From an uncultured Candidatus Saccharibacteria bacterium (GTDB lineage: Bacteria > Patescibacteriota > Doudnabacteria > UBA920), in assembly GCA_964436545.1 (NCBI GenBank), contig CAYTCJ010000003.1:70041-134040 (forward strand): 64,000 bases of DNA, given 5' to 3'. The notes beneath the pieces are model-generated. The model saw nothing but the letters and a program-made list of their open reading frames with translations. It was not told the origin of the DNA and did no database searches. A program made the translations under genes and the position numbers. Each line of letters begins with the position of its first letter. Position 1 is the first letter of the stretch. Below are positions 17,748 to 32,250 of this stretch, piece by piece.

Positions 17748-17816
17748 ATTTTTTAAAATTAATAATTATTTTTTTGCTTTAAAATTTTAGGGGATAGGAC
17801 TCCGCCAGCTGGCGGA

Positions 17817-18033: not shown

Positions 18034-19184
18034 GCTTTAGAGAATCTTGCGAAAAAAAATAAATCGTTGCCAAAGCAACGATATAATTTATCCTGCTTCG
18101 GGAAATTTCTACAATCCAAAATAGACCAGACTCGTTTTGCCAAAAGTGGCAAACATTACTGTTGCGGCACAGTCCCGGAATATTATCCTACTTCGTTTAA
18201 AGCTTCGTAGGATATTCACCAGAGTTCCTTTTTTGAATTACTTAAATTGTTTTCTAACAATACTCCGAATAAAATAATTTGTCAAAATTTGGTCAACTTA
18301 GCTGTGGATAATTTAACCTAAAGTTATGCGAAAACGTGTCCCTAAAACAAATTTTTAGCAATATTGCGTGGAACAGATAATTTTAAACAAAAATCGATTA
18401 AGTTCACAGTTTCATTATAGTTTCAGAGAATATATAACTTTTAATTTTTGCGACAATACAATATAAAAAGTATAAGTAGATTATTACTCAAATTTTGTAA
18501 TGGGTTACCAGCCAAAGAATTCATTTCCTGAATTTTATAGTTTATAAGTCTGGAGACTAAGAACAAAAACTTCAATTAAATTAAAAGCGCAACAAACTTT
18601 ATTGGAGTTTGGGTTATAGCGTATCCGAGATTTTACTTTTTCTGCGCTTATTTTAAAGGAGACGTATTTTGTAGGCAATTTTCTGCAAAACCTAATTTTC
18701 AAATATTTTGCATGCTTAAAATTTTAATTGAGTGAAAAAATGTCAAAATCTTTGTTTTAAGATATAAGACATTCAGCCATTTGGCTAAGTTGGGTGTGTT
18801 AGCTAACTTAAGTTAAGCTTTTAAATTGATTGTATTTAGTTTCACGTAGGAAAATCTATTTATAGGATTTTTTTTTCAATTTTCGTGAATAATTATATTA
18901 AGGATATTGCCATATATTTAATAGCGACAAAAATAAAATTTAGGCTTGGTTTTAAAAACCAAATTTAAGTATTTAGGTATAAATTTAAATTAGGGTTAGT
19001 ATTAAATTTATGTTGTAATGAGTGAAACATACTTTTGTAAAAAATTTTGTGTTTTTTACAAAATTTTTTTGCTTAAAAGTCTTTAAAAACTTGTTTAAAA
19101 AAAGTATAATATATATATAAGTTAAATTAATAAATCGGATATCCGAGATTAACTAAATCCACTTAAGAATAAGCGAAGTTTAAA

Positions 19185-22100
19185 GTGAAAGATACAAAAA
19201 GCAAAAATCAAAATAATTTCATTTCTTTATCTGAAGCAAGTGAAAAAACCGGGTATCACCAAGACTACCTTGGTTTTTTATGTAGAACTGGAAAGCTGGA
19301 AGGTTTTAAAATTGGCAGAAATTGGGTAATCACTCAGTCGGCTTTGGAAAGCTTTTTGGCCAATAACGCCAGTGGGCAAATTGAAGCCGTGCAGACCGTG
19401 CCGGTGAAGGTTATTGCACCTTCGGCGTCTGTCCCTGTGCCGGAAGTGAGGGCAGTAAGCCAAGAAGTGGAAAAGAGTAAACATGATCTTTCCAATTTGA
19501 AAAGAAAAGTTTTTGAAGATTTAAATTACCGCATAGGTAACTTAAATACTCAGCTCAATGAACTGGACGCTAAATTGGCTAACAGTCAAAAAGCGGTGGC
19601 TTTGCCGAATCAAGTCGCCACGGTTTCCACTCCGGTTTTACCTGCCGAAGATTTTGAGCCAAAAATCAAGCCGGAACTGAAAACTAAATTTGCTTCGGCT
19701 TTGGCTGTGGCTTCTAACCTGGAACCGGAGGAAAAAACTTTTGCTCCGCTTTCGGTGTTAAGCAAAGATGCTTTGTTAAAACTCAAAGAAAGTTTTCGGG
19801 TTAAGGCCAGAAATAATTTTTTGGCCCCGAGCTTGGCTATGGGTGTGGCGGTGTTGGCTTTTGTTTCTACCGTGGCGTGGAATTATTTGCAGGAAGATTT
19901 GTATAGAAATTATCAAACGCCGGCTGTGGTTTATAAAAATAATTTTGTGCCCCAGAGTCAACCCGCTTCCAGCACACCACCGGTCATAATTCAAAACGGT
20001 AACCAAATTGTCATTCGGGACAGATTCACCACCGAGACTGTGGTGAAGTCTTTGTCAGCCGATGCTAACTTGGTGAATCAACTGATAGACCAGAGATTAA
20101 ATAAATATTTGGCCGAAGGAAAATTTAAAGGTGAAAAAGGCGACACGGGCGCTCAGGGTCTGCAAGGCAGTAATGGTCAAACCGTGGGCGCTGGCGGGTA
20201 TGTGCCGTATGCCTATTACGCGCCGGTGCCGGCGAATAATTTTACCGGTGGCACAAGTTTGTCTTCCACCCAACTCTCCGCGAACAGCGGAGTAATTACC
20301 ACTTTAAGCGTGGGTGACCTTACCACAACGGGCAATGCGAGCATTGGTGGAACATTAAATGTTTCGGGCAATACGGGTTTATCTACCGCGAACATTACCA
20401 CACTCAATGTTGCTGGCACATCTAACTTGGCTACCACGACCATTAGTCAATTAAATATTTCCGGCAATGCGACCACCACGGGTAATTTAACGGTGCTGGG
20501 CACTTTTAATTTAAGTGGTTCGCTGTCTTCGGCTAGTGGCACTTTTTCCACCTTAGTGGTGAATGGCAATGCCACCACCACAGGTAATGCTGTGGTATCT
20601 GGCAATCAGCTAATTAGTGGCACATTGTCGGTGGTGGGCACTTCCACTTTAGCGACTACTTCTTTATCCGTGTTATCTGTGTCTGGTGCTCAATCTGTGA
20701 TAGGCACTTCTACTCTGGCGACCACCACCATTACAAATTTGTCTGTGTCCGGCAATTCCACTTATACCGGCAATTTAACTTTAGCTACCATGACACCGGG
20801 GTCGGTAATTTTTGCCGGGGTGGGTGGAGTGTTAAACCAAAATAATTCTAATTTTTTCTGGGATGATGCCAACAAATATTTTAACCTTGGCACTAACACC
20901 ATTTCTTCCACTCTTGCCATTCAAGGCAGTGGAGCGGTAAATCCTTTAACCATTGCTTCTTCTACGGGCACCACTTTGCTTACCGTTTTACCCACTGGCA
21001 ACGTGGGGATTGGGACGACAAATCCAGGGAATAAATTAGAAGTCAATGCGGGAGATATAAATATCATTGGCTCTGGTCAAGCATATCGTCAGGGGGGGTC
21101 GTGGCTCATAGGTATGCTTGGTACTTCAGCTTATGTTGGGGGTGGTTTGAGTGGTGATTTGCAATTGGGTGCGAATGCCAATGGTCAAATTACCATTAAA
21201 AATGGTGGCAACGTGGGCATTGGCACCACGACGCCATCAAGTCGATTGGATGTGTATGGTGCTCAGAGTGCTATCTCAGCAACAATTTACGGAGGCTCAA
21301 CAGTTGATAGCGCTCGCCGATCAGGTACACTGGCTCTTGGTGATGATACTACTGCTCAAGGCCGACTAAGTTATGGATATGGTTCAGGTGTACTTTATTT
21401 GGACAATACATACAATCATGCTAATGGTGATATTTACGTCCGAACTCAAACATCGGGTACACCAGTTAATGCATTAGTTGTAAAAGGTGGCGGTAATGTT
21501 GGTATTGGCACTACCACTCCGGGAGCTTTGTTGCAGGTTGCAGGTACATCCGCTAACCCCAGCAATGCCAATGGTCAATTGCGAATTAGCGACAATAGCA
21601 ATGGAATAAAGCGTTTGTTGCTTGGTGTAAATACTTCTGCTTCCACGATGTATAGCTTTATCCAGTCAGTGGAGGCAGGGAATGCCTGGCGCGATTTAGT
21701 TCTACAACAAGAAGGTGGCAACGTGGGTATCGGCACCACGACTCCGGGTGCGAAGTTGCAGATTTATCCGAATGCCAATTCCACTATTGGTCTGATTGTG
21801 CAGGCCGATAACAACGGAGCTTCTAATATACAGCAGTGGCAACAGGCTAACGGCACATTGGTGGCCGCGGTTGGTAACAACGGTTCAATTGGGATTTTAG
21901 ACGGTTCCAAAATTTTGCTTGATGGGTTGTCCGGGTCTTCGTATTTGCAGGAGTCTGGTGGTTTGAATATAGTTTCCGGTTCCGGCAGGGATATAGTTTT
22001 AAGCGCCGGTGCCGGTGGTGAAAGACTAAGAATAAAAAATGACACCGGCAACGTAGGCATTGGCACCACGAGTCCTTCTCAGGCTTTGGAAATTAATGGT

Positions 22101-25100
22101 AATTTAAGATTCACTAACGCTGGTTCTTGGATAGATTTTGGGAATAATAAGTCCATTTACAATTACAACAATAATTTAAACTTTATTAATGGTGGTCCTT
22201 CTAATTCGGTTGTAATGACCATTGCCAATTCTAGCAACGTGGGGATTGCCACCACAACCCCACAGGCCAGATTGTCCGTGCAAGGTACGGGGACAGGTGG
22301 TGCTTTGTCATTTGCCACTTACAATTCCAACGCCCAGGATATTTTAACAGTCACTGATAATGCTAACTTGCAAATTGGCAGTACAGCCGGAAATATTGCC
22401 GGCACACTTACCGTTTATAACGGCAGTAGCGGGGATTTTAGCATAGCCGGCAATACTAGTACCGGGAACGTCACTATAAATAACGCAAACTCTGCCGGGG
22501 GAGATATTAACATCCAAACTCGTGGCACTTCTGCCATTTATGTAAAGAATGGGGGTAACGTCGGCATTGGCACAACTTCACCTTTAGCTAAGTTAGATGT
22601 GTATGGCAATTTGAATGTTGCCACAGGTTCTACTCCTACTTTGTTTGTAAATACTGCAACAGGAAATGTTGGGGTTAATACTACTAATTTAACGGATAAT
22701 TTTACAATAAAACCAACAAGTGCCGGGAAAGGTTTGGTAATTAGGGAGTCTGATGATGGTAATGAGGCTATAAGAGCTCTGGGTTTTACTGCCGGTGGGT
22801 TACTGTCTTTGCAGACCGGTGGTGTGAACTCCATTTATTTTGATGCTACCAGTGCATCGGGTATAACCTATTTTAATACCGGCAATGTGGGCATTGGCAC
22901 AACAACTCCACTTAGCAAATTAGCTGTAGTAGGCACCGCTGGTGCCAATCCCATTTTAGATTTAGCTTCCTCCACCGGCACATCGGTTCTTAGAGTGGCA
23001 GAAAGTGGAAATGTGGGGATTGGCACAGCGAGTCCAAGTGCGAAGTTGGATGTACAAGGTGGTTCTGGTCTTGCATTGATAGCAAGAGGTGGGGATTTGG
23101 GTTCGGGAACGACAATTTTTACCGTTCAAAATAATAGTGGCACGGGAATGTTCAGCGTGAGGGGGGATGGAGGAACGGGTATTTATACTGGATTGGGTAT
23201 TGGTTCAACATATGCTGGCACTCAACCACCAACAAACGGGGCGATAATTCAAGGAAATGTTGGTATTGGCACTAGCGGGCCTTCGGCTCCTTTGGAAGTT
23301 AGAGGTACAGCAAATAATGGTTCAGTTCAGACTGTTCAGTATTTAATTAATCCAGGAACAGGAAATGGGACTGGGGCTCAATTAGCAATAGGTTATTCAA
23401 CTAGTAGTGCAACACAGTACGGAGCTATTCAAGGGTATTATGATTCTACTTTAGGAGGTACTAAATTAGGACTGGTTGCAGGAGGTACAACTTTCTTGAC
23501 CGGAGATAAAAATGGCAATGTCGGTATTGGCACCACCACTCCACTTAGTAAATTAGCTGTAGTCGGCACAGCTGGTGCAAATCCCATTTTAGATTTAGCG
23601 TCATCTACTGGAACGAGTGTGCTTAGAGTAAGTGAAGCGGGGAATGTGGGGATTGGAACGACTACACCAAATGTTGGTTTATTGATAAATAAAGTTGGCA
23701 CTTTGTATGGTTTGAGTACTGCACTGCAAATTCAAACAGGAGCAATCCTTGCACCAAATAATAATGGTTTGTACACAGTTAATGCTGCTGGTACAGATGT
23801 TGTTCCGCTTATAAAAAGTGATACATCAAATAATACATGGATAAACCCAGGGGGTGCTGGTGTTATTAGATTTGGTGCCGGCGGTAGTAATGAATATATG
23901 AGACTGGATACAAATGGTAACCTAGGCATTGGCACCACCACCCCTCTAACCAAGTTAGTGGTAGCTGGAGCTACTAATAGTGGTATTACTCCCACAACAG
24001 GCACTTCGTTAACTTTAGACAGTATTAGCACAGACAACTATTTGACTGTTATAAGTAATTCCGCAAGTAACGCGGGACTTATATTTGGCAGTCACTCGTC
24101 GGCTTTTACCGGAGCTGTGGTGTATAACAATCCCAACAGTCAAATGGCCTTTAAAGTAGGTGGAAACAGTACCAAGATGGTTATAGATAGCAGTGGAAAT
24201 GTGGGCATTGGGACTACAACTCCTACAGGAATAATTGATGTAGTCGGTGGAAATAATGCTTATACTTATTTTAGAGGTGCAAGTGGACAACCTGCAATTC
24301 GTCTTCAGAAATTGGATTCAGCCACGGAGTTTTTAATCCGTGCACAGTCTAACGGTACAAGCCTTGAAAATTCGCTTGGGTCTGAACATTTATTTATTAC
24401 CACTGCTGGCAATATCGGCATCGGCACCAGCACCCCCGGTCGGACACTTTCTGTTGTAGGTGACATAAGAGCCACGGGTATTTTGTATGATTCATCTAAC
24501 TCAGCTGGCACGAGTGGGCAATTCCTTATGACTACTGCTACCGGTTATGCTTGGACAGCTACATCTACATTATTTGGTGGTAACCAAATCACCGGCAGTG
24601 GCACTAATGGTTATGTAGCTCGTTTTACTGGAGCCAACACTCTCTCTACCGGAGTCTTAATAGACAACGGCACAGTGGCTGGAGTGAATGCCACATCTTC
24701 CAGCTATACTTTTAACCTTCAGGGCGCTAGTGGTAAAGCCCCTTTAAACATTGCTTCTTCCACCGGCACTTCACTTTTGGTAGTGGACCAGACTGGGAAT
24801 GTGGGGATTGGGAATACCTCACTATTTTCAAAATTAAATATCATTGGTGATATTGGGCAATACTCTTCAAGTACAACAAGTGCAGGTTCTCCGTTAGGAA
24901 GCTCATTATATCTAGGAGATATTAATTTTTACAACAGCTTGTATTATAACAGTGCTCCAGGATTGAGTGCGGTTTATGACTCTGCGCACAATGTAGCAGC
25001 GGCATTGGCTTTCTATACTTATACAGGTAATCAGAATTCAAGAACAGAAAAAATGAGAATTACAAGTGCTGGCAATGTCGGTATTGGAACGACAAGTCCC

Positions 25101-28100
25101 TCGGCAAAATTGGCCATTGAAGGTTCAGATGTGAGATTAAATTTAAGTGATACTAGTGGTTCGGCACAATCCTTGATTGCCTTGCAAAGCTCTGGTGCGA
25201 CAAAATGGTTTACAGGAAAAAATGCTTCTAATGATTTTATTATTTATGACAATGTTGCATCAAGAAATGCTTTGCGTATAGCTCAAAGTGGCAATCTATT
25301 TTTGCAAGAAGGTGTCGGCAACGTGGGTATTGGCACCACGACACCAAACTGGAAATTGCAAGTAAGTTCTTCCGCTACATACAACAACGATGCCGGTGGG
25401 GCTTTTGCCATTACCGATTCCACCACACCGACTAAAAAAATCTTTTTAGGATACGATGCTTCAAACGATGTTGGTTTTATAAACACTGTGCAAACCGGAG
25501 TAGCCAATAAAAACTTAGCCATAAATGCTTCCGGAGGAAATGTCGGTATCGGCACAACATCAATGGCGGTTAAGCTTGTAGTGGAAGGCAATACTAATTT
25601 ATTAGGCACCAATAATGATGGCGGGGTTGCCACCTCGGCTTTAAATGTTAACGGTGCTTTTATGACCATTGGTGATTATTCTGGTGCACAAACTTTTTCT
25701 AATGGTATTGGAATTAAATTCAACGACACTGGGATTAATCACATGAGTATGAAATATACCCCTAGTGCCGGTAGGTTGGATTTTGGTCCATCGGACACTA
25801 ATTCTTATTTAACTATAAATAGCGGACAAGAAAGATTTAGTATAAATATGACTTCTGGGAATGTAGGCATTGGAACCACCACTCCCCAATACAAACTTTC
25901 AATAGATACTGCTGGTAATGATTATGGTGTAGTAATGGGACAGTCTGGAAGTGCCACTGGTAAAATATTAGGTTTAGGATACTTCCTAACTGGAGATTAT
26001 GGTGTTATTCAAGCGGTTCATCAGGGGACTGCTTATAAGAATTTGGCAATTAACCCGAACGGGGGGAATGTGGGTATAGGCACAGCGAGTCCAAATGATA
26101 AGTTGGAAGTAGCGGGTGGTACAACTGGTCGTGTCTTAATTACAGATGGTGGTGGGGCAAACAGAAAAGCATTAATTTTAGAGCAACCTGGATATAGTGG
26201 AAATTCTTATGCAAGAATAGAAGCTTACGATTATGGAGCTTCATCAGTTAAATCTTTAGCTATAAATGCTCTTGGTGGTAATGTTGGTATTGGCACAACA
26301 ACACCTGTAAGTCAGTTAGAAATCTATCAATCTGCTAATGTAAGTCCACAATTACGAATAGGCAACAACTACTTTAACCGAGGAATTGACTTTGGCTATG
26401 ACACCAATTCCGCCTTTATACAAGGTAAAGCGGATATTCTCTCTGCTCCCATTAGCTATCATCTAGCTTTAAACCCGAATGGGGGAAACGTCGGCATTGG
26501 CACCACCACTCCATCTGCAAAACTTTCTATTGCAGGTAGCACCAATGGAATACACCTTGGTCAGTGGTCAGGTTCATCTGCATACAATGCTCTCTACTTA
26601 AATAGTTCTCCGTCTGTAAATACAACTTATACCCTGCTCGCCAACGATACTGGAAGTGTGTTTTTGAATGCCAATGGTTCAGGTTCTATATATTTAAGGG
26701 AGGATAACAATAATCTGATGACCATAGATAATAATGGAAATGTGAGCAACGTCGGTAATTTGCTTGTAGGAAAAGATGCATCAACCCAAGATGCTTATAT
26801 AGATGTAGGGAATGCACGGTCAGGTAATGGTTATTCTTATGTTGATATTATTGGCGATGCGACTTACACCGATTTTGGTTTAAGATTGATAAGAGGTAAT
26901 GGAGGGGCTAATGCTTATTCTCAACTGGTTCACAGAGGCACAGGCACACTTTCGCTTTACACAATGGAAGCTTCTCCAATAGAGTTTTACACCAACAGTA
27001 GTGCATCAGCTAGAATGCATATTGCGAGTGGGGGAAATGTGGGGATTGGGACAACGGCTCCTGGTAGAAAGTTGGAAGTTAATGGCGGAACAGATACTAC
27101 TGGAAGGATAAGAATTTCTGGGGGTGGTGGTTCTGAACTAATTTCAGGTAATTTGGAATTTTATCACCAAACATCTGACCATAATTATAATTTAGCTATG
27201 GTTAATAACAATACCTTGACTTTGTTCAAAGGAACTTTTGGTGCAACAACCACGCCAATTATGACTTGGGATGGAACTGCGGGGAATGTGGGGATTGGCA
27301 CCACTACCCCACTTAGTAAATTAGCCGTCGTAGGCACAGCTGGTGCCAACCCGATTTTAGACATAGCCTCATCATCATCTACTTCTATTTTAAGAGTAAG
27401 TCATACGGGCAATGTGGGTATTGGCACTACTTCTCCAGCTGGCACCTTAGCCATTAAAGACAGCCTTAGCTCCAGTGGTTATTCTTTAGTGATTAACGAC
27501 TATTATAAATTTAGGGGTGATGGGAGATTTAATTTTGGTAATAATGCAACTCAAGGGGTTCTCTCTTGGGATGCCGGTATAGCTATAGTTGGGGCTCAGG
27601 TAGCTAATGATTTAAGTTTACACGCAGGCGATGTGGAAAAAGTGAGAATTACAACTGCTGGGAATGTTGGTATCGGTCTTAGTTCTCCAACAGCTAGATT
27701 AGAGGTTAGAAACTCTGGTACAGGAGATAGTGCTATATATGTAACCAACACAGTGGGTGGTGCACAAGCAACTCTTGGTGCTTGGTCGTCAAATGATGGT
27801 GCTATGCGACTTTGGAAAGCTGATGGAACAGAAAGTGTTAGACTCTTGGCAAATGGTGCAAGTCATTTAACTGGGGGGAATCTGGGTATTGGCACAGTGA
27901 GTCCTTCTTTTGCTCTTGATGTAAATAGTAATGTGATTGGAGTGGGTACAAAGTCAGCTAATGCGGGTTATGGTGGGCAAATAAGGTATAGAGATGATAC
28001 CGGCACAGCAAGGTGGATGATAGGTCTTAGTGGATCTGCCGGAGCTACGGCTTTGTATAACTCATATAACCTTACAAACGACCAAGTTTACATAACCACC

Positions 28101-30704
28101 ACAGCCAGTGGCAGGGTGGGGATTGGCACTAACCACACCTCCCCACTGCAGGCTTTGTCGGTAGCTTCGTCTTCACTTTCGGCAATTCCGGCTTTAGGCT
28201 TATCTACTGCCAGTGGGCAATTTTCGGTGTTGGGTGATAGCGGAGCTTATGGTTTAAGGGTGGGTGTTCTATCATCCGGTGATGTTTTCCAACAAGTAGA
28301 TAGATTTGACGGCTCTGCAACTGCTTATAACTTACTCTTACAACCTAGAGGCGGTAAAGTGGGCATTGGCGTAACTTCCGCTTCCCAAACTTTGCACGTT
28401 GTAAGCACAGATGCGGTTGAGCCGACACTTGGCACTGCTCCTTCCTCTGGGGTGTCTATGCTGGGCAGTAATAATGCTTATGGTTTGTTTATTGCCAACA
28501 ATGGAACTTCCGGTGCCACGTGGCTACAAAGTATGAGAAACGACAGTGCAGTAGCTTATGCGTTAAACTTACAGCCCAGTGGCGGGAACGTGGGCATTGG
28601 CACATCTACTCCAGCCCAAAAACTGCATATTAGCGGTTCTGATTTATATACTAACGATTACGGTATTTTAACCATCTCCGATTCCAGCTCACCCAAAAAG
28701 CTAATTTCTATGGGAATGGACGGCACCAATAGTGTGGGACACATTCAAGTCGTTAATAGTGGTTCTGCATATTTGCCTTTGGCTTTAAATGGTAATGGCG
28801 GGAATGTGGGTATTGGCACATCTACGCCATTGGCAACTTTGGAAATTTCCGGCACTTCTCCTTTGAGACTAACCCGTCCCGGACTTAACTCATATAATTC
28901 CACCATATCCGGTTTAATGTCCGGCACTTCCAATGGTGATTTATTGTGGGAAACCAACCAAGCCGACGGTGGTTTTGCTTGGCGGGTAAACAGTGGCAAC
29001 ACTTTTGCTCTGGGCATTACCGAAGCGGGGAATGTGGGGGTGGGGACTTCTACACCAACTCAAAAATTGGTAGTCGTGGGAGGTAATATTCGTCTTTCAA
29101 ATAATCAAAGTTTAATGTTTGGTGACTCGGCTGAGGCTGATGTGCCGTTGATAAAAGTTGATACTAGCAATCAAGCATTGTTTACCAATGGAAATAATGC
29201 CGCCTTTATTTTCTCAACCGGTTTCAGTTCTAATGCCAATAATAACTATATTTTCCAAACCAATGGTGGCACTGAGCGAGTAAGATTTCAATATGATGGG
29301 AATGTGGGTATAGGCACAAGTAGCCCACTTCAAGGTTTGCATATTGGCTCTAACGCCAGTGGTAAGAACGTGCAAGTCGCTAATGGCTGGCTGTGTGTGG
29401 ACAATAACGACTCTTGCACCGGTGCTTCTACGGCCGGCACGGTTTACGCGGTAGGCGCATACACCACCGGTGCGGACGTGGCGGAAAATTATCCAACTAA
29501 CGAAAGTTTAGAAGCCGGAGATGTGGTAATGGCAGATGGTGGTTCTCCCATCTTTGTCAAAAAAGCAAATATGACCAATATGTCCAATACGACCTATAGG
29601 TCCAATGCTGTGCTCGGTGTAGTTTCTACTCAGCCCGGTATTTTATTGAATGGCTATAAAGCCCAAGAGTTTAATAGTGCTTCCACTGTGCCGGTGGCTT
29701 TAAATGGGCGAGTGCCGGTAAAAGTTACTAATGAAAACGGCAATATCAAGATTGGCGACTACTTAACTTTGTCTAAAACTTTCCCGGGCTATGCTATGAA
29801 AGCTGTGCATTCCGGCGAAGTAATTGGTCAAGCTTTGGAAAACTTTGAAAACGAAACTATTGGCACATCAGGTAAAATTTTAGTCTTTATGAGTTTAGGC
29901 TTTAGAAATATTAACAACACTTTTGTCTTAGGCGAAGACGATGGGCAATTGGCTAATGCGACCAGTACACCCCCTCTTTTCCAAAGAGGGGGCAGGGGGA
30001 GTTCATTCTTAATAGATCAACGTGGTTCAGGCAACATCTTACAGCTCCAACAAAACGGGGTAGATAGATTCTTGGTAGCCAATGACGGCACTTTGTCACT
30101 GCTCGCACAAACCGCCTCTACCACCAAAAATATTTTAGAAGTAAAAAATGCTTCCTCCACTGTGTTTGCCATTAACGCTCAAGGCGATGCCCAATTTATT
30201 GGCAAGATTATGGTGAGTAAAAATACGGCTGGTACCGCCGTGGTGAAAGAGGGGGATAATTTAGTGAGAGTGACTTTTGAAAACCCATACCCCAGCGTGC
30301 CCAAGGTAATTGTAAGTGTAAATGGTGTGCCGAATTTCTTTTACGGCGTGGTGGATAAGAGCGAAACCGGATTTACCATTCAGCTAAGCGAACAAACCCA
30401 AAAAGAATTCAGTTTTGATTGGGTGGCATTGGTTCAGCCGGAAAATACCCAGTATGAATCGGGCATAAGCTTTATAGTTTCTGCAAACCCTCCGCCGGCT
30501 GAAACACTGCCTCCGGCTTCCGAAACACCGCCCGCAGAAGAACCACCGGCAGAAACTCCTCCGCCGGCAGAAACTTCTAATCCGGACAATTTAACTAACC
30601 CGCCGGCTTCCGAAACACCACCAGCCGAAGAGACTCCACCGGCAGAAAACACTCCACCGGCAGAAACCGGCGGTGAGGTAGCCGGCACACAAACCGGCCA
30701 ATAA
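19185..30704 (+). CDS. Giant (3839 aa) protein. It has an N-terminal excisionase/MerR-like helix-turn-helix, a coiled coil, one transmembrane helix, a short collagen-like G-X-Y run, ~45 tail-fibre-like beta-helical repeats (GNVGIGTTTP...KL.V), a C-terminal fibre-tip/chaperone-like domain and a PPAET-repeat tail.
   Basis: ISLSEASEKTGYHQDYLGFLCRTGKLEGFKIGRNWVITQSALESFL is HTH_17-like. FLAPSLAMGVAVLAFVSTVAWNYL is the transmembrane helix. GEKGDTGAQGLQGSNGQT is collagen-like. GNVGIGT recurs across ~3000 aa. GTG start at 19185. Confidence 0.85.
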   Translation: MKDTKSKNQNNFISLSEASEKTGYHQDYLGFLCRTGKLEGFKIGRNWVITQSALESFLANNASGQIEAVQTVPVKVIAPSASVPVPEVRAVSQEVEKSKHDLSNLKRKVFEDLNYRIGNLNTQLNELDAKLANSQKAVALPNQVATVSTPVLPAEDFEPKIKPELKTKFASALAVASNLEPEEKTFAPLSVLSKDALLKLKESFRVKARNNFLAPSLAMGVAVLAFVSTVAWNYLQEDLYRNYQTPAVVYKNNFVPQSQPASSTPPVIIQNGNQIVIRDRFTTETVVKSLSADANLVNQLIDQRLNKYLAEGKFKGEKGDTGAQGLQGSNGQTVGAGGYVPYAYYAPVPANNFTGGTSLSSTQLSANSGVITTLSVGDLTTTGNASIGGTLNVSGNTGLSTANITTLNVAGTSNLATTTISQLNISGNATTTGNLTVLGTFNLSGSLSSASGTFSTLVVNGNATTTGNAVVSGNQLISGTLSVVGTSTLATTSLSVLSVSGAQSVIGTSTLATTTITNLSVSGNSTYTGNLTLATMTPGSVIFAGVGGVLNQNNSNFFWDDANKYFNLGTNTISSTLAIQGSGAVNPLTIASSTGTTLLTVLPTGNVGIGTTNPGNKLEVNAGDINIIGSGQAYRQGGSWLIGMLGTSAYVGGGLSGDLQLGANANGQITIKNGGNVGIGTTTPSSRLDVYGAQSAISATIYGGSTVDSARRSGTLALGDDTTAQGRLSYGYGSGVLYLDNTYNHANGDIYVRTQTSGTPVNALVVKGGGNVGIGTTTPGALLQVAGTSANPSNANGQLRISDNSNGIKRLLLGVNTSASTMYSFIQSVEAGNAWRDLVLQQEGGNVGIGTTTPGAKLQIYPNANSTIGLIVQADNNGASNIQQWQQANGTLVAAVGNNGSIGILDGSKILLDGLSGSSYLQESGGLNIVSGSGRDIVLSAGAGGERLRIKNDTGNVGIGTTSPSQALEINGNLRFTNAGSWIDFGNNKSIYNYNNNLNFINGGPSNSVVMTIANSSNVGIATTTPQARLSVQGTGTGGALSFATYNSNAQDILTVTDNANLQIGSTAGNIAGTLTVYNGSSGDFSIAGNTSTGNVTINNANSAGGDINIQTRGTSAIYVKNGGNVGIGTTSPLAKLDVYGNLNVATGSTPTLFVNTATGNVGVNTTNLTDNFTIKPTSAGKGLVIRESDDGNEAIRALGFTAGGLLSLQTGGVNSIYFDATSASGITYFNTGNVGIGTTTPLSKLAVVGTAGANPILDLASSTGTSVLRVAESGNVGIGTASPSAKLDVQGGSGLALIARGGDLGSGTTIFTVQNNSGTGMFSVRGDGGTGIYTGLGIGSTYAGTQPPTNGAIIQGNVGIGTSGPSAPLEVRGTANNGSVQTVQYLINPGTGNGTGAQLAIGYSTSSATQYGAIQGYYDSTLGGTKLGLVAGGTTFLTGDKNGNVGIGTTTPLSKLAVVGTAGANPILDLASSTGTSVLRVSEAGNVGIGTTTPNVGLLINKVGTLYGLSTALQIQTGAILAPNNNGLYTVNAAGTDVVPLIKSDTSNNTWINPGGAGVIRFGAGGSNEYMRLDTNGNLGIGTTTPLTKLVVAGATNSGITPTTGTSLTLDSISTDNYLTVISNSASNAGLIFGSHSSAFTGAVVYNNPNSQMAFKVGGNSTKMVIDSSGNVGIGTTTPTGIIDVVGGNNAYTYFRGASGQPAIRLQKLDSATEFLIRAQSNGTSLENSLGSEHLFITTAGNIGIGTSTPGRTLSVVGDIRATGILYDSSNSAGTSGQFLMTTATGYAWTATSTLFGGNQITGSGTNGYVARFTGANTLSTGVLIDNGTVAGVNATSSSYTFNLQGASGKAPLNIASSTGTSLLVVDQTGNVGIGNTSLFSKLNIIGDIGQYSSSTTSAGSPLGSSLYLGDINFYNSLYYNSAPGLSAVYDSAHNVAAALAFYTYTGNQNSRTEKMRITSAGNVGIGTTSPSAKLAIEGSDVRLNLSDTSGSAQSLIALQSSGATKWFTGKNASNDFIIYDNVASRNALRIAQSGNLFLQEGVGNVGIGTTTPNWKLQVSSSATYNNDAGGAFAITDSTTPTKKIFLGYDASNDVGFINTVQTGVANKNLAINASGGNVGIGTTSMAVKLVVEGNTNLLGTNNDGGVATSALNVNGAFMTIGDYSGAQTFSNGIGIKFNDTGINHMSMKYTPSAGRLDFGPSDTNSYLTINSGQERFSINMTSGNVGIGTTTPQYKLSIDTAGNDYGVVMGQSGSATGKILGLGYFLTGDYGVIQAVHQGTAYKNLAINPNGGNVGIGTASPNDKLEVAGGTTGRVLITDGGGANRKALILEQPGYSGNSYARIEAYDYGASSVKSLAINALGGNVGIGTTTPVSQLEIYQSANVSPQLRIGNNYFNRGIDFGYDTNSAFIQGKADILSAPISYHLALNPNGGNVGIGTTTPSAKLSIAGSTNGIHLGQWSGSSAYNALYLNSSPSVNTTYTLLANDTGSVFLNANGSGSIYLREDNNNLMTIDNNGNVSNVGNLLVGKDASTQDAYIDVGNARSGNGYSYVDIIGDATYTDFGLRLIRGNGGANAYSQLVHRGTGTLSLYTMEASPIEFYTNSSASARMHIASGGNVGIGTTAPGRKLEVNGGTDTTGRIRISGGGGSELISGNLEFYHQTSDHNYNLAMVNNNTLTLFKGTFGATTTPIMTWDGTAGNVGIGTTTPLSKLAVVGTAGANPILDIASSSSTSILRVSHTGNVGIGTTSPAGTLAIKDSLSSSGYSLVINDYYKFRGDGRFNFGNNATQGVLSWDAGIAIVGAQVANDLSLHAGDVEKVRITTAGNVGIGLSSPTARLEVRNSGTGDSAIYVTNTVGGAQATLGAWSSNDGAMRLWKADGTESVRLLANGASHLTGGNLGIGTVSPSFALDVNSNVIGVGTKSANAGYGGQIRYRDDTGTARWMIGLSGSAGATALYNSYNLTNDQVYITTTASGRVGIGTNHTSPLQALSVASSSLSAIPALGLSTASGQFSVLGDSGAYGLRVGVLSSGDVFQQVDRFDGSATAYNLLLQPRGGKVGIGVTSASQTLHVVSTDAVEPTLGTAPSSGVSMLGSNNAYGLFIANNGTSGATWLQSMRNDSAVAYALNLQPSGGNVGIGTSTPAQKLHISGSDLYTNDYGILTISDSSSPKKLISMGMDGTNSVGHIQVVNSGSAYLPLALNGNGGNVGIGTSTPLATLEISGTSPLRLTRPGLNSYNSTISGLMSGTSNGDLLWETNQADGGFAWRVNSGNTFALGITEAGNVGVGTSTPTQKLVVVGGNIRLSNNQSLMFGDSAEADVPLIKVDTSNQALFTNGNNAAFIFSTGFSSNANNNYIFQTNGGTERVRFQYDGNVGIGTSSPLQGLHIGSNASGKNVQVANGWLCVDNNDSCTGASTAGTVYAVGAYTTGADVAENYPTNESLEAGDVVMADGGSPIFVKKANMTNMSNTTYRSNAVLGVVSTQPGILLNGYKAQEFNSASTVPVALNGRVPVKVTNENGNIKIGDYLTLSKTFPGYAMKAVHSGEVIGQALENFENETIGTSGKILVFMSLGFRNINNTFVLGEDDGQLANATSTPPLFQRGGRGSSFLIDQRGSGNILQLQQNGVDRFLVANDGTLSLLAQTASTTKNILEVKNASSTVFAINAQGDAQFIGKIMVSKNTAGTAVVKEGDNLVRVTFENPYPSVPKVIVSVNGVPNFFYGVVDKSETGFTIQLSEQTQKEFSFDWVALVQPENTQYESGISFIVSANPPPAETLPPASETPPAEEPPAETPPPAETSNPDNLTNPPASETPPAEETPPAENTPPAETGGEVAGTQTGQ

Positions 30705-30970: not shown

Positions 30971-30995
30971 ACATATAAAATTAAAACAAAATTTT

Positions 30996-31637
30996 ATGAC
31001 AGACTTAATAGCACAGCACGGCGGTTATCAAAATTTAAAATCATTTCAAGGAGCGGAAATTATTTTTGATTTGACTTTTGAATTTGTTCAACGCTTTGTT
31101 AAATCATTGAAGTGGAAAGAGCAAATGGAAGGCGCTGCGCGCGGTGGCAAGCAAAATATTGCCGAGGGTTCTAAGACTTCAGGCACATCCAAACAAAGCG
31201 AGTTAAGATTGGTTGATGTTGCCAGAGCTTCTTTAGAAGAATTATTAAATGATTATAAAGATTTTTTGCGCGTCAACAATTTGCTAATTTGGGACAAAAA
31301 CGACAAGCGGATTTTGGCAATTCGAAAACTCGCCTACGCACCCAATAGGTCCTGTAAGTCTTATATGACCTATATGTCAAATAGCGAATCATTCGCCAAT
31401 TGTTTGATTTGCTTAATTCATCAAACCAATTATCTGTTGGACCAACAGTTGCGTGTTTTAGAAAAAGATTTGGCTCTGAAAGGGGACTTTAAGGACCGTC
31501 AAAGGGCAATTAAAAAATCCGCAATGTTGAATGACGGGCCCAGTTTTGAGGAGTTTATTAAATCTTTTGGTTTAAAACGTCTGGAGAATGGACAAGTGGT
31601 AAAAATAAATGATGAAGACAAAATAGGACCAATATGA
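30996..31637 (+). CDS. four-helix-bundle protein family (the kind often encoded in 23S rRNA intervening sequences), with a C-terminal extension
   Basis: YQNLKSFQGAEIIFDLTFEFV...NIAEGSKTSGTSKQSELRLVDVARASLEELLNDYKDFL matches the NIAEGS...ARGSLxEL pattern of the family. 9-bp array units lie inside the CDS at 31343-31383. Confidence 0.65.
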   Translation: MTDLIAQHGGYQNLKSFQGAEIIFDLTFEFVQRFVKSLKWKEQMEGAARGGKQNIAEGSKTSGTSKQSELRLVDVARASLEELLNDYKDFLRVNNLLIWDKNDKRILAIRKLAYAPNRSCKSYMTYMSNSESFANCLICLIHQTNYLLDQQLRVLEKDLALKGDFKDRQRAIKKSAMLNDGPSFEEFIKSFGLKRLENGQVVKINDEDKIGPI

Positions 31638-31762: not shown

Positions 31763-31764
31763 TG

Positions 31765-32250
31765 TTAAAACAGTTTTTCCAAGTCTTCCGTCAGGTTAAT
31801 CTCTTGAGTTTTAATTAGGCGGATAAAAAATTTCTTTCCCAGTTCTAAAAATTCTTTTTCAATCTCTTTGTCCAATTCATAGGGAGAGGCCCAAATAGAG
31901 TTCTGCCACTTTTTAAAACCTAACTGCTTTAGTTTGGCTCTTAAAATGTTTCTTACAGCCTTGTGTTTTTCCGGCACATCAAAAATGACCAGTTTCCACA
32001 TGCCATCTTTTTTCGGCACTTTAATTTTTAACAAGGTTAAGCCTTCAGATGTAATTTTCCCCAAGAGTTTATCTTGCTCGTTTTTTTTCTCCACCAAGCC
32101 CGCGCTAATCATGCGGAATAAGGCATTATAAAATTCTTTATAGCTTAGGGTGGGGGCTAAGATTCTATGGAGCGTGGTAAAAGCCACCCAATCGTTTTTT
32201 TGGAGAAAATGTAAAGTGTTAATGGTGAGTTGGTTAAAGGGACGGGACAT
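31765..32250 (-). CDS. winged-helix + PaaX-C/Cas2-like domain protein (mini PaaX-like regulator or nuclease-fold protein)
   Basis: The C-terminal motif is MWKLVIFDVPEKHKAVRNILRAKLKQLGFKKWQNSIWASPYEL, of the form W.LV.FD[IV]PE...R..LR..L...GF...Q.S[IV]W.SP. The N-terminal ~80 aa are winged-HTH-like. Confidence 0.55.
   Translation of the reverse strand: MSRPFNQLTINTLHFLQKNDWVAFTTLHRILAPTLSYKEFYNALFRMISAGLVEKKNEQDKLLGKITSEGLTLLKIKVPKKDGMWKLVIFDVPEKHKAVRNILRAKLKQLGFKKWQNSIWASPYELDKEIEKEFLELGKKFFIRLIKTQEINLTEDLEKLF

What the first reader, a model, noticed from the sequence alone, without database searches (positions are those of the whole stretch)
19185..30704. Giant protein joining a cytoplasmic DNA-binding helix-turn-helix to a membrane-spanning, tail-fibre-like extracellular body
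Order of parts: an excisionase/MerR-type helix-turn-helix (residues ~10-60), a coiled coil (~95-135), one transmembrane helix (~210-235), a short collagen-like G-X-Y run, about 3000 aa with ~45 recurrences of GNVGIGTT(T/S)P...KL.V (the beta-helical tail-fibre-like repeat), a C-terminal ~150-aa domain resembling fibre-tip/intramolecular-chaperone domains, and a (PPAET)n tail. The helix-turn-helix is on the cytoplasmic side of a huge surface fibre, which implies a protein physically linking DNA to a cell-surface appendage. The flanking 9-bp arrays are obvious candidate ligands, suggesting autoregulation, tethering or a role in DNA uptake or transfer. Alternatively the N-terminal helix-turn-helix is a cleaved regulatory domain released on fibre engagement, in the manner of a one-component transmembrane signal.
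Basis: partly seen in the sequence, partly recalled or inferred. Interest (0 to 1): 0.8.

Follow-up and report, generated by a model that had tools for sequence, protein, structure and literature searches.

The report
Giant surface fibre with cytoplasmic HTH
A 3,839-residue protein of an uncultured Patescibacterium joins a cytoplasmic DNA-binding-type domain, through one membrane helix, to a phage-tail-fibre-like surface fibre roughly 100 nm long; it belongs to a large undescribed family whose genes carry a conserved operator-like DNA box, so the fibre's anchor probably also controls its own gene.

Summary
ORF 19185..30704 (+) encodes, in order: an Xis/MerR-type winged helix-turn-helix (HTH), a long helix, one transmembrane (TM) helix, a short collagen-like run, 35 (not ~45) tail-fibre "capping-loop" repeats, a phi29-gp12-type intramolecular-chaperone domain, an H-type-lectin-like domain and a Pro-rich tail.

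It is not a one-off. The HTH defines a Patescibacteria family of at least 1,201 clusters, and almost every member has a single TM helix after the HTH. In Doudnabacteria-like genomes the module is fused to giant fibres. In Paceibacteria and Nomurabacteria a 125-137-aa HTH-TM protein sits immediately upstream of a separate secreted fibre gene.

- They are absent from 78 of 80 homologous loci.
- The downstream arrays bracket a four-helix-bundle gene.
- The upstream array lies in the leader of a divergent gene that has a B12-riboswitch-like element.

A different element does track the family: an 18-bp box, ATATCG-NN-TATCCGA(G/T)AT, next to a -10 element. It is 47-fold enriched upstream of these genes. 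In a reverse metagenome scan, every promoter-context copy preceded an HTH-family gene.

Best reading: a membrane-anchored adhesin fibre whose cytoplasmic HTH is a membrane-tethered autoregulator. DNA binding itself is inferred, not shown.

The parts
19185..30704 (+). Giant ORF, 3,839 aa, GTG start. The GTG start and A-rich context are conserved in homologues.
19218..19364 (+). Cytoplasmic Xis/MerR-type winged helix-turn-helix (HTH_17), residues 12-60. The motif TGYHQDYLGFLCRTGKLxGFKIGRNW is invariant in close homologues.
19458..19598 (+). Long cytoplasmic helix, residues 92-138. Candidate oligomerising coiled coil.
   Evidence: pLDDT 74-84; weak coiled-coil-type Pfam hits. Oligomeric state not tested.
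19818..19889 (+). Single TM helix (signal anchor), residues 212-235, preceded by KLKESFRVKARNN.
20082..20183 (+). Conserved extracellular neck LIDQRLNKYLAEGKFKG (residues 300-316) running into six collagen-like G-X-Y triplets (316-333).
20280..20804 (+). Proximal shaft of short T/S/N/G-rich beta-type repeats, residues 366-540.
   Evidence: read directly from the sequence
20973..29348 (+). Fibre body: 35 copies of the capping-loop motif GNVGIGTTxPxxKLxV, residues 597-3388. Tail-fibre / MAT-type, inferred to be a trimeric beta-helix.
   Evidence: count; PDB 8ond, 8ojn, 8ol4, 8oml; motif in PMC10769870; PHROG tail fibre families, E 4e-39
29472..29903 (+). phi29 gp12 / Peptidase_G2-type intramolecular-chaperone domain, residues ~3431-3573. 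The conserved A|DVAENY motif (3430-3436) aligns with the first residues of the gp12 C-terminal fragment.
29568..29606 (+). In-frame 9-bp-repeat insertion (NMTNMSNTTYRSN, residues 3462-3474) in a loop of the chaperone domain. It is an insertion relative to almost all homologues.
30228..30440 (+). H-type-lectin-like beta-sandwich, residues ~3682-3752. Candidate sugar-binding tip.
   Evidence: 21.9 bits, below the cut-off of 24; Helix pomatia agglutinin, SLL-2, discoidin II; probability 1.0
30483..30701 (+). Pro/Glu/Thr-rich (PPAET)n tail, residues 3767-3839.
19132..19149 (+). Box B, AAATCGGATATCCGAGAT: the family-specific 18-bp operator-like box, 36-53 nt before the GTG.
19105..19110 (+). TATAAT -10-like hexamer, with TTTAAA 17 nt upstream. 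Candidate promoter of the giant gene.
18614..18631 (+). Box A, TTATAGCGTATCCGAGAT: a second, distal copy of the box. These two are the only exact TATCCGAGAT copies in the 64 kb.
19022..19029 (+). GTGAAACA, the window's copy of the second conserved upstream motif (A/G)TGAAACA of giant-class genes.

Best explanation
The gene encodes a type-II (N-in) membrane-anchored surface fibre of a Patescibacterium, closest to Doudnabacteria.

Outside the membrane (architecture shown by homology; assembly and function inferred):
- A ~60-residue low-complexity spacer, then a conserved neck helix and a short collagen-like run.
- About 3,100 residues of phage-tail-fibre / Bdellovibrio-MAT-type beta-helix. This is inferred to be trimeric and on the order of 100 nm long.
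- A gp12-type intramolecular-chaperone domain that should drive trimer folding.
- An H-type-lectin-like domain that could bind a sugar on a host or partner cell.

Inside the cell: the first 210 residues carry an Xis/MerR-type winged HTH and a long helix.

This HTH-TM module is a lineage-wide unit. It occurs alone, in tandem copies, fused to fibres, or encoded immediately upstream of separate fibre genes.

I infer that it is a membrane-tethered DNA-binding regulator. Its target would be the conserved 18-bp box ATATCG-NN-TATCCGA(G/T)AT beside the promoter of its own gene or operon. It would work in the manner of ToxR/CadC-type regulators, which bind DNA without leaving the membrane. The amount or state of fibre in the membrane would then feed back on fibre transcription.

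DNA binding, trimerisation, chaperone cleavage and sugar binding are all inferred, not shown.
For: Architecture
-.

N-in topology
- No signal peptide, a single hydrophobic segment, and the positive-inside bias across 175 relatives.

HTH fold
- HTH_17 at the gathering cut-off here and above it in relatives.
- AlphaFold2 pLDDT 80-84.
- Foldseek matches to the DNA-bound wHTH proteins BldC, TraN, Xis, RdfS and RacA: target-normalised TM-score 0.7-0.78, rmsd 1.6-2.5 A.

Family
- 6,503 representatives at E<=1e-3 and 1,201 at E<=1e-10.
- 91 of 96 members of 300 aa or more have a TM segment after the last HTH.
- 90 of 152 carry two tandem HTH copies.
- 10 are 3,000 aa or longer.
- 80 genomic loci, almost all Patescibacteria.

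Fusion/fission link between module and fibre
- In 13 of 18 small-class loci, the 124-137-aa HTH-TM gene is followed at -4 to +14 nt by a large gene with an N-terminal signal-peptide-like hydrophobic segment.
- The complete ones are 1,458-3,120 aa, and several carry capping-loop motifs.

The box
- Core 8-mer density is 1.92/kb in the 600 nt upstream of HTH genes versus 0.041/kb elsewhere in 1.18 Mb.
- It is present for 31 of 32 giant-class and 13 of 18 small-class genes.
- It lies 8-9 nt after a TATAAT in most giant-class genes printed, often with a second copy ~60 bp downstream. Small-class genes often have two copies 31-32 bp apart.
- In the window, the only two exact copies in 64 kb lie upstream of this gene.

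Reverse test
- Of 122 exact box matches in metagenomes, 13 are followed by an HTH-family ORF. All 13 lie in short open stretches and 12 have a TATAAT-like hexamer upstream.
- The other 109 lie mostly inside long ORFs of ~50% GC contigs.
- No TATAAT-associated copy in a short open stretch lacks the HTH gene.

Against an RNA element
- No covariation between the box arms.
- No consensus RNA structure in 21 aligned leaders: -0.47 kcal/mol, 0 compensatory pairs.

Body and tip
- tail fibre / MAT; gp12 chaperone; H-type lectins.
Against: - No experiment or model shows this HTH on DNA.
- The window's HTH has net charge 0. The family mean is about +2.7.
- Most of the 28 mid-class (270-360 aa) relatives have the same GYHQDYL recognition helix but no box within the sequence held. 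So the helix and the box do not always travel together.
- The window has one proximal box, 21 nt after the -10, plus one distal box. It lacks the usual pair.
- Transcription start sites are inferred from hexamers only.
- Box 1 and an inverted core ~60 nt downstream could pair in the mRNA: 8 consistent versus 3 inconsistent loci, which is inconclusive.
- RodZ is a precedent (own knowledge) for an HTH-TM protein whose HTH binds a protein (MreB), not DNA.
- Topology rests on hydropathy and charge bias, not a dedicated predictor.
- Trimerisation was not modelled.
- If the gp12-type site is cleaved, the lectin-like domain would be cut off the mature fibre. That would undercut its proposed role as the tip.
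Confidence: 0.5

Rival explanations
1. One reading: the cytoplasmic HTH binds the 9-bp arrays that flank the gene, tethering that DNA to the fibre or autoregulating through them.
For: - The arrays are real.
- The best structural match of the HTH, BldC, binds 9-bp direct repeats head-to-tail (PMC5859096). Its repeat, CAATTCGGA, loosely resembles GGACAAATA.
- A trimeric fibre would present three HTH domains side by side (inference).
Against: - Arrays of this kind occur in only 2 of 82 related loci: one downstream of a four-helix-bundle gene and one in-frame inside the coding sequence.
- In the window the downstream arrays and a 91%-identical 57-nt direct repeat bracket the four-helix-bundle gene 30996..31637.
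- The upstream array lies in the leader of the divergent gene with the B12-riboswitch-like element, 1.15 kb from the start codon.
- The HTH recognition helix is invariant across lineages that show no arrays, so the arrays cannot be its conserved ligand.
Confidence: 0.04
2. The HTH-TM module is a structural anchor or partner-binding module, not a DNA binder. The HTH binds a cytoplasmic protein, as RodZ's HTH binds MreB, or simply fixes the N-in topology and helps the chains oligomerise. The conserved box is then recognised by another factor or acts in the mRNA.
For: - The window's HTH has net charge 0.
- Most mid-class relatives have the same helix but no box.
- An invariant surface fits a conserved protein partner as well as a conserved DNA site.
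- An inverted box core downstream could pair with box 1 in the leader.
- The RodZ precedent (own knowledge).
Against: - All close structural matches are DNA-bound wHTH proteins.
- Tandem HTH copies in 90 of 152 members match a bipartite or repeated box.
- In promoter context the box is exclusive to this gene family, in both search directions.
- No covariation and no consensus RNA fold.
- Small-class genes carry direct, not inverted, box copies that cannot pair with each other.
Confidence: 0.27
3. A contact-triggered, cleaved regulator. Engagement of the fibre leads to regulated intramembrane proteolysis, and the freed HTH then acts on DNA.
For: - The architecture is compatible: an extracellular binding domain, one TM helix containing Pro and Gly, and a cytoplasmic HTH.
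- An autoproteolytic-type domain exists on the outside.
- The box gives the freed domain a target.
Against: - No protease, cleavage motif or conserved juxtamembrane site was identified.
- The free-standing 125-aa HTH-TM proteins have only ~35 extracellular residues with which to sense anything.
- Membrane-tethered regulators such as ToxR and CadC work without release (own knowledge). In cells a few hundred nm across, DNA is always close to the membrane.
Confidence: 0.1
4. It is a prophage tail-fibre gene, or the variable target of a diversity-generating retroelement, with the adjacent four-helix-bundle gene acting as an Avd-like accessory protein.
For: - Strong PHROG tail-fibre matches.
- A four-helix-bundle gene lies immediately downstream.
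- The C-terminus carries a lectin-like domain.
Against: - Neighbours are cellular genes: a B12-binder-like gene, Nramp, an amidohydrolase, tmRNA, and reading frames whose sequences look like carbamoyl-phosphate synthase and aminoacyl-tRNA synthetases (these last were read by eye, not scanned).
- No reverse transcriptase was found among the neighbours scanned.
- No template/variable repeat pair was found in 28500-35500.
- A cytoplasmic HTH plus TM anchor, conserved in 80 chromosomal loci, is not a virion architecture.
Confidence: 0.02

Closest known systems
[quoted passage not shown]
   Same: - The repeated capping-loop motif V-G-G/N-pi-x-x-P-x-x-x-L on a trimeric beta-helix (PMC10769870), which equals GNVGIGTTxPxxKL here.
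- Direct sequence matches to the solved chains.
- A modular, swappable C-terminal tip.
- A cellular, not viral, surface fibre used for cell-cell recognition.
   Different: - MAT fibres are ~1,000 aa. Their invariant N-terminal domain is proposed to bind a surface element of a diderm cell.
- Here the fibre is 3.8 times longer and has 35 repeats.
- It is anchored by its own TM helix and continues into a cytoplasmic HTH.
- The tip is a gp12-type chaperone plus an H-type-lectin-like domain, not S74.
phi29 gp12 pre-neck appendage C-terminal autochaperone (MEROPS/Pfam Peptidase_G2; PDB 3suc, 3gqh)
   Same: - Fold match (Foldseek E 8.6e-4, probability 1.0).
- The family profile aligns its conserved D-x-A-E-x-Y motif with the first residues (DFAEYF) of the gp12 C-terminal fragment.
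- 11 of 54 homologues pass a Pfam Peptidase_G2 search at E<=0.01.
   Different: - The window protein itself gives no Pfam hit.
- The domain is internal and is followed by ~265 more residues (a fibre unit, the lectin-like domain and the Pro-rich tail).
- It carries a 13-residue insertion derived from the 9-bp repeat.
- Cleavage is untested.
H-type lectins (Helix pomatia agglutinin 2ccv, coral SLL-2 3wmp, discoidin II 2vm9)
   Same: - Beta-sandwich fold match (probability 1.0, target-normalised TM-score ~0.5).
- Weak Pfam H_lectin hit.
- These lectins are trimer-based GalNAc binders (own knowledge), which would suit the end of a trimeric fibre.
   Different: - The score is below Pfam's cut-off (21.9 versus 24 bits).
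- Sugar-binding residues were not examined.
- The domain sits downstream of a possible autocleavage site.
BldC / Xis / MerR-like small winged-HTH proteins (HTH_17), including RacA and TraN
   Same: - Same fold and profile.
- These proteins bind short repeated or dyad sites as cooperative multimers (PMC5859096).
- RacA tethers the chromosome to the cell pole (own knowledge).
   Different: - Those proteins are soluble.
- Here the domain is covalently tethered to the membrane and to a giant extracellular fibre.
- Its recognition helix (GYHQDYL...) defines a separate Patescibacteria subfamily.
Membrane-tethered one-component regulators (ToxR, TcpP, CadC) and transmembrane anti-sigma factors with extracellular binding modules (RsgI) (own knowledge)
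   Same: - Cytoplasmic N-terminal DNA-binding or regulatory domain, one TM helix, extracellular C-terminal domain.
- The proposed logic is that events outside the cell are coupled directly to transcription.
   Different: - ToxR and CadC use OmpR-type winged helices and small periplasmic sensor domains.
- None carries a multi-thousand-residue structural fibre.
- No homology was detected. This is an analogy of mechanism only.
RodZ (own knowledge)
   Same: Bitopic protein: cytoplasmic HTH, one TM helix, extracellular domain.
   Different: - RodZ has an XRE-type HTH that binds MreB, and it is a cell-shape factor.
- One distant homologue of the C-terminal region gave a weak RodZ_C hit. The window protein did not.

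Membership tests
HTH_17 / excisionase-MerR-like winged HTH | Profile match at or above the curated cut-off | tested here: met
   Borderline. PF12728 scores 27.1 bits against a cut-off of 27 on the 330-aa fragment, and 23.3 bits on the full protein. Relatives score 29.5-36.9 bits. TIGR01764 is below its cut-off.
HTH_17 / excisionase-MerR-like winged HTH | beta-alpha-alpha-beta-beta-alpha winged-helix fold | tested here: met
   AlphaFold2 pLDDT 80-84 for residues 10-61. Foldseek matches BldC, Xis, TraN, RdfS and RacA with rmsd 1.6-2.5 A, although E-values are only 0.04-0.6 for so short a domain.
HTH_17 / excisionase-MerR-like winged HTH | Sequence-specific DNA binding | not testable with these tools
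   Indirect only: the family-specific 18-bp box.
MAT / phage tail-fibre trimeric beta-helix | Repeated capping-loop motif V-G-G/N-pi-x-x-P-x-x-x-L | tested here: met
   35 copies at 14-42 bits by the repeat HMM. Motif definition taken from PMC10769870.
MAT / phage tail-fibre trimeric beta-helix | Sequence homology to solved or annotated fibres | tested here: met
   8ond E 7e-5 and 8ojn E 4e-3. PHROG tail-fibre families E 4e-39 and 1e-37.
MAT / phage tail-fibre trimeric beta-helix | Trimeric intertwined assembly | not tested
   No multimer prediction was available. Inferred from homology, the collagen-like run and the chaperone domain.
   No PF13884-type hit at E<=1 in the full protein or the C-terminal 539 aa, and none among 54 homologues.
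Peptidase_G2 (phi29 gp12) intramolecular chaperone | Profile match | tested here: inconclusive
   The window protein gives no hit. 11 of 54 homologues hit PF11962, best E 2.6e-6. The family profile hits 3gqh at E 4.8e-4.
Peptidase_G2 (phi29 gp12) intramolecular chaperone | Fold of the gp12 C-terminal domain | tested here: met
   Foldseek 3suc E 8.6e-4 and 3gqh E 2.2e-3, probability 1.0, using a model with pLDDT above 90 over most of the domain.
Peptidase_G2 (phi29 gp12) intramolecular chaperone | D-x-x-E motif at the cleavage site, and autocleavage | tested here: inconclusive
   The motif A|DVAENY is conserved and aligns with DFAEYF at residue 1 of the gp12 fragment. Cleavage itself cannot be tested here.
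H-type lectin | Profile match above the cut-off | tested here: not met
   21.4-21.9 bits against a cut-off of 24. 5 of 54 homologues match, best E 1e-6.
H-type lectin | Fold | tested here: met
   2ccv, 3wmp, 4q56 and 2vm9: probability 1.0, target-normalised TM-score ~0.5.
Collagen triple-helix repeat | Long uninterrupted G-X-Y run or Pfam Collagen match | tested here: not met
   Only six triplets (residues 316-333) and no Pfam hit. The run is conserved in homologues.
Membrane-tethered transcription regulators (ToxR/CadC type) | N-in bitopic topology with a cytoplasmic DNA-binding domain | tested here: met
   Hydropathy and positive-inside bias across 175 relatives. No dedicated topology predictor was run.
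Membrane-tethered transcription regulators (ToxR/CadC type) | OmpR-type winged-helix domain (homology) | tested here: not met
   The domain is HTH_17, not Trans_reg_C. This is an analogy of mechanism only.
Diversity-generating retroelement target | Reverse transcriptase plus template/variable repeat pair nearby | tested here: not met
   No such repeat in 28500-35500. The neighbours scanned contain no reverse transcriptase.

The most novel reading that the evidence does not exclude
The protein is a single-polypeptide contact sensor. Load on, or binding to, a ~100-nm host-recognition fibre would be transmitted through one TM helix to a trimer of cytoplasmic winged-HTH domains sitting on the 18-bp box. 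Attachment to a host cell would then switch transcription directly, and would physically hold the locus at the membrane. This would happen in bacteria that have few conventional signalling systems. The free-standing HTH-TM proteins encoded upstream of separate fibre genes would be the two-component version of the same device.
Probability: 0.15. Interest if true: 0.85.

Novelty: new variant of a known kind. Interest (0 to 1): 0.66.

Why it matters
[quoted passage not shown] How they recognise and hold on to hosts is largely unknown, according to the abstract of 10.1101/2024.11.25.624915 seen.

This gene adds three things:
- A concrete candidate for a host-recognition fibre of the same structural class that Bdellovibrio uses for prey recognition.
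- A very large family, with at least 1,201 clusters at 50% identity, of membrane-tethered winged-HTH proteins genetically coupled to such fibres. I found no description of it in the literature searches.
- A short, sharply defined DNA box that makes the regulatory hypothesis testable with one purified 75-residue domain and one oligonucleotide.

If the HTH does bind the box, this would be a new class of membrane-bound transcription factor, and a direct link between the cell surface and gene expression in organisms with minimal regulatory repertoires.

If it does not, the family still defines a lineage-specific way of anchoring giant fibres in a cell envelope without an outer membrane.

Tried and rejected
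- **Pfam Peptidase_S74 and Collagen:** no hits. The chaperone is the G2 type.
- **NCBIfam on the body and C-terminus:** nothing.
- **9-bp arrays as the HTH ligand:** rejected on co-occurrence (2 of 82 loci) and on context.
- **Diversity-generating retroelement, with the four-helix-bundle gene as Avd:** rejected. No reverse transcriptase among the neighbours scanned and no template/variable repeat pair.
- **Prophage origin:** rejected on cellular neighbours and the conserved membrane-anchor architecture.
- **RNA-element reading of the box:**
  - No arm covariation.
  - RNAalifold finds no leader structure.
  - The box 1 / inverted-core pairing test is inconclusive at 8 versus 3.
- **Rfam on 17700-19300:** only a minus-strand AdoCbl-riboswitch-like match, which belongs to the divergent gene.
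- **The search for related loci with the 330-aa alignment A1:** failed for lack of a conserved stretch. The HTH alignment A2 worked.
- **Literature searches**: no description of an HTH-TM-fibre family in Patescibacteria.
- **Cluster look-up of ten family members:** returned no names.
- **DnaA-box-like motif upstream of small-class genes:** the neighbours read by eye look like transketolase and sugar-kinase genes, not dnaA. Not pursued.
- **Signal-peptidase cleavage after the TM helix:** no conserved A-x-A-type motif seen by eye in the aligned homologues. Not tested with a predictor.


Full report
**1.

The window has one uninterrupted frame, 19185..30704 (+), with a GTG start and 3,839 codons. 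No other start codon would keep the N-terminal domain intact. Homologues begin at the equivalent GTG in an A-rich context. A 98%-identical N-terminal fragment and a 90%-identical C-terminal fragment exist in other samples, so both ends are not assembly artefacts. The protein is rich in G, T, S and N (13.7, 10.7, 10.3 and 9.2%).

**2. N-terminal, cytoplasmic part.**

- Pfam HTH_17 matches residues 13-61 with E 5e-6 and 27.1 bits, right at the cut-off of 27. Scored against the full protein it reaches 23.3 bits. Relatives score up to 36.9 bits, and excisionase PHROGs match weakly.
- An AlphaFold2 model built on the shallow alignment A1 is poor overall (mean pLDDT 51.6). It is confident (80-84) for residues 10-61, which fold as beta-alpha-alpha-beta-beta-alpha. 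It also predicts a helix at 92-138 and a TM helix at 213-240.
- Foldseek against the PDB returns BldC, TraN, Pukovnik Xis, RdfS, RacA and Tn916 Xis. Target-normalised TM-scores are 0.7-0.78 and rmsd is 1.6-2.5 A. E-values are only 0.04-0.6 because the domain is about 50 residues.
- Kyte-Doolittle hydropathy gives a single strong segment at 212-235 and nothing hydrophobic in the first 60 residues.
- Across 175 relatives, the 15 residues before the TM segment carry 2.84 K+R on average, against 1.38 after it. 74% have more before and 9% have fewer.
- An N-in, C-out signal anchor is therefore well supported. No dedicated topology predictor was run.

**3. Extracellular part.**

- After a ~60-residue low-confidence spacer comes a conserved neck, LIDQRLNKYLAEGKFKG (residues 300-316). 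It runs into six G-X-Y triplets (316-333), which are conserved in homologues.
- Residues 366-540 are short T/S/N-rich repeats.
- From residue 597 to 3388, a repeat HMM finds 35 copies of GNVGIGTTxPxxKLxV at 14-42 bits.
- This motif is the "capping loop" V-G-G/N-pi-x-x-P-x-x-x-L that Caulton et al. defined on the trimeric beta-helix of Bdellovibrio MAT fibres. They also found it related to the phage T5 tail fibre and the K1F endosialidase stalk (PMC10769870).
- The solved MAT chains are the only PDB sequence matches to the body (8ond E 7e-5, 8ojn, 8oml). The C-terminal query, which includes the last repeat, also matches 8ond, 8ojn and 8ol4. PHROG tail-fibre families match at E 4e-39 and 1e-37.
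- Scaling from 150 A for the ~370-residue Bd2133 tip puts ~3,100 residues on the order of 100 nm or more. That figure is an inference.

**4. C-terminal region.**

- The search found 248 homologues. A 54-sequence alignment gave a good model: pLDDT 80.9, and above 90 over both domains.
- Foldseek finds phi29 gp12 (3suc E 8.6e-4; 3gqh) for residues ~3431-3573. It finds H-type lectins (Helix pomatia agglutinin, SLL-2, discoidin II) for residues ~3682-3752.
- Eleven of the 54 homologues hit Pfam Peptidase_G2 and five hit H_lectin. The window protein itself is below the cut-off for H_lectin (21.9 versus 24 bits) and silent for G2.
- The family's conserved motif [AG]-D-[VLY]-A-E-x-[YF] (ADVAENY, residues 3430-3436) aligns with DFAEYF, residue 1 of the crystallised gp12 C-terminal fragment.
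- If cleavage occurs at A3430|D3431, the lectin-like domain and the (PPAET)n tail (3767-3839) would be removed from the mature fibre. This is unresolved.

**5. It belongs to a large family.**

- A word-indexed search with the first 330 residues found only eight relatives, all Patescibacteria or metagenomic. They share the order HTH, helix, TM, neck, collagen-like run, fibre.
- A profile of the HTH alone, scored against 1.84 billion representatives, found 6,503 proteins at E<=1e-3 and 1,201 at E<=1e-10.
- Among the best 152:
  - 90 have two tandem HTH copies and 4 have three.
  - 91 of the 96 that are 300 aa or longer have a TM-like segment after the last HTH (median 82 residues later).
  - 29 are 1,000 aa or longer and 10 are 3,000 aa or longer, up to 6,890 aa.
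- A genome scan gave 80 loci, almost all Patescibacteria. The closest matches are mostly labelled Doudnabacteria; many, including the best match L003, are auto-labelled Saccharibacteria. More distant matches are Magasanikiibacteriota, Nomurabacteria and Paceibacteria.
- The loci fall into three classes:
  - Giants: HTH, TM at ~220-290, collagen-like run, capping-loop repeats.
  - Mid class: proteins of ~270-360 aa with a short external tail.
  - Small class: proteins of ~125-137 aa with the TM at ~75.

**6. Fusion and fission link the module to fibres.**

In 13 of 18 small-class loci, the HTH-TM gene is followed at -4 to +14 nt by a large gene with an N-terminal signal-peptide-like hydrophobic segment. 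The complete ones are 1,458-3,120 aa, and several carry capping-loop motifs. The window's protein is the fused form of that two-gene unit.

The mid-class genes sit in a different conserved cluster: a divergent PaaX_M-like gene, then the HTH-TM gene, then a ~180-aa secreted protein, then a homologue of window ORF 33080..33646. The window keeps this cluster at 31765-33646, but without a mid-class HTH-TM gene.

**7. The 9-bp arrays are not the ligand.**

- Arrays lie at 17816-18031, 30700-30971 and 31661-31759.
- The two downstream groups, together with a 57-nt direct repeat (30914-30970 versus 31677-31733, 91% identical), bracket the four-helix-bundle gene 30996..31637. That gene carries the TIGR04258 suffix domain.
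- The same gene (67% identical) with the same array occurs in Doudnabacteria locus L004.
- The upstream array lies between a minus-strand AdoCbl-riboswitch-like element and the divergent gene 15936..17747.
  - The element is at 18082-18253: 39.7 bits, below the gathering score of 50; E 2e-5; it covers the full model. It has its own promoter-like and terminator-like sites.
  - The gene encodes DUF4430 plus an alpha/alpha toroid.
- The repeat also occurs in-frame inside coding DNA:
  - in this ORF at 29568-29606, an insertion relative to homologues;
  - in the four-helix-bundle gene;
  - in the HTH-TM linker of L022.
- Among 82 related loci, only L004 and L022 have such arrays.
The distribution excludes it as the conserved function of an HTH whose recognition helix does not vary across lineages without arrays.

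**8. A different element tracks the family.**

- K-mer enrichment in the 250 nt upstream of the 83 HTH genes with enough upstream sequence, against 589 control upstream regions, singled out TATCCGA: 43 of 83 versus 9 of 589, p 1e-35.
- The full element is ATATCG-NN-TATCCGA(G/T)AT (position matrix).
- Its core occurs at 1.92/kb in the 600 nt upstream of HTH genes and at 0.041/kb elsewhere in 1.18 Mb. It is present for 31 of 32 giant-class, 13 of 18 small-class and 6 of 28 mid-class genes.
- In most giant-class genes printed it starts 8-9 nt after a TATAAT, with a second copy about 60 bp downstream. Small-class genes often have two copies 31-32 bp apart.
- In the window, the only two exact TATCCGAGAT copies in 64 kb are at 19140-19149 and 18622-18631.
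  - The first is box B, 19132-19149, 21 nt after the TATAAT at 19105-19110 and 36-53 nt before the GTG.
  - The second is box A.
  - By my own arithmetic, about 0.1-0.25 exact copies would be expected by chance.
- The box arms do not covary. RNAalifold on 21 aligned leaders finds no structure: -0.47 kcal/mol, no compensatory pairs.
- Reverse test.
  - Thirteen are followed within 900 nt by an HTH-family ORF. These contigs average 38% GC, the box lies in short open stretches, and 12 of 13 have a TATAAT-like hexamer within 30 nt upstream.
  - The other 109 lie mostly inside long ORFs of ~50% GC contigs, as expected for chance matches in so large a collection.
  - No TATAAT-associated instance in a short open stretch lacks the HTH gene.

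**9. Mechanism.**

Supported by homology and sequence analysis:
- the domain order and the N-in topology;
- the tail-fibre / MAT nature of the body;
- the gp12-type and lectin-type folds;
- the size and taxonomic range of the family;
- the fusion/fission link between module and fibre;
- the exclusive association of the box with these genes.

Inferred:
- the HTH binds the box while still membrane-tethered, giving autoregulation (a ToxR/CadC-like logic; own knowledge);
- the fibre is trimeric and mediates attachment;
- the lectin-like domain binds a sugar;
- the chaperone domain cleaves.

Points against, and the rival readings, are listed in their own sections. The main rival is a non-DNA-binding anchor or partner-binding module on the RodZ precedent. 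In that case the box would be read by something else.

**10. Novelty.**

Automated annotation already calls fragments of such proteins "helix-turn-helix domain-containing protein". Four literature searches found no description of the HTH-TM-fibre architecture, of the family, or of the box. Each component is a known kind. New here are the fusion of a membrane-tethered winged HTH with a giant tail-fibre-like adhesin, its spread across Patescibacteria, and its dedicated promoter box.

Noticed in passing
window 18082-18253 (-), with 18285-18257 (-) and 18082-18063 (-); gene 15936..17747 (-): AdoCbl (B12) riboswitch-like element: RF01482, 39.7 bits (below the gathering score of 50), E 2e-5, covering the full model. 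It has a promoter-like site upstream and a terminator-like hairpin downstream. It precedes a secreted protein with DUF4430 plus an alpha/alpha toroid, probably a B12-regulated surface B12 binder. The 9-bp array 17816-18031 sits inside this leader.
   Followed up: partly
window 30700-30971 and 31661-31759 around gene 30996..31637; L004 10941-11675: The 9-bp arrays (AATAGGACA / GTCCTATAA family) and a 57-nt direct repeat (30914-30970 versus 31677-31733, 91% identical) bracket a four-helix-bundle gene with the TIGR04258 suffix domain. The same gene and array recur in a Doudnabacteria genome. It looks like a small repeat-bounded cassette.
   Followed up: partly
window 29568-29606; window ~31350-31385; L022 876-919: The same 9-bp repeat occurs in-frame inside coding sequences. 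It gives NMTNMSNTTYRSN in a loop of the giant's chaperone domain (an insertion relative to homologues), KSYMTYMSN in the four-helix-bundle protein, and DKTDRTDTTDKTDRT in the HTH-TM linker of a homologue.
   Followed up: partly
window 5745..7844 (-): A 699-aa ORF with an IPT/TIG domain lies in a 59% GC island, in a window that averages about 41% GC. This could be foreign DNA or a chimeric assembly.
   Followed up: no
window 31765..32250 (-), 32390..32971 (+), 33080..33646 (+); about 30 related loci: Conserved cluster: a divergent PaaX_M/Cas2-like gene, a small secreted protein, and a ~190-aa TM protein. In other Patescibacteria this cluster also contains a 270-360-aa HTH-TM gene. The window's copy lacks that gene.
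   Followed up: partly
window 19022-19029; about -160 to -370 in most giant-class loci: A second conserved motif, (A/G)TGAAACA, lies roughly 100 nt upstream of the -10 of giant-class HTH-fibre genes (19 of the 32 giant-class upstream regions contain it within 250 nt).
   Followed up: no
L069-L081, about 30 nt upstream of the -10 of small-class HTH-TM genes: A DnaA-box-like motif, CTGTGGATAACT, occurs in 11 of 21 small-class upstream regions. The neighbouring genes, read by eye, look like transketolase and sugar-kinase genes, not dnaA.
   Followed up: partly
L001 12304..16455; protein P0212: Intein_splicing / Hint domains occur inside homologous fibre genes. L001 is also heavily frameshifted, which probably reflects long-read assembly errors.
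   Followed up: no
window 45952-46362 (-): tmRNA gene (118.7 bits), with tag peptide AIENSWNKVVAAFKAADLVPVVA.
   Followed up: no
window 56238-56323: A 38-bp tandem repeat (2.3 copies, 97% matches) lies inside the long ORF 54038..57199, whose sequence looks like an isoleucyl-tRNA synthetase by eye. A unit length that is not a multiple of three is odd for coding DNA.
   Followed up: no
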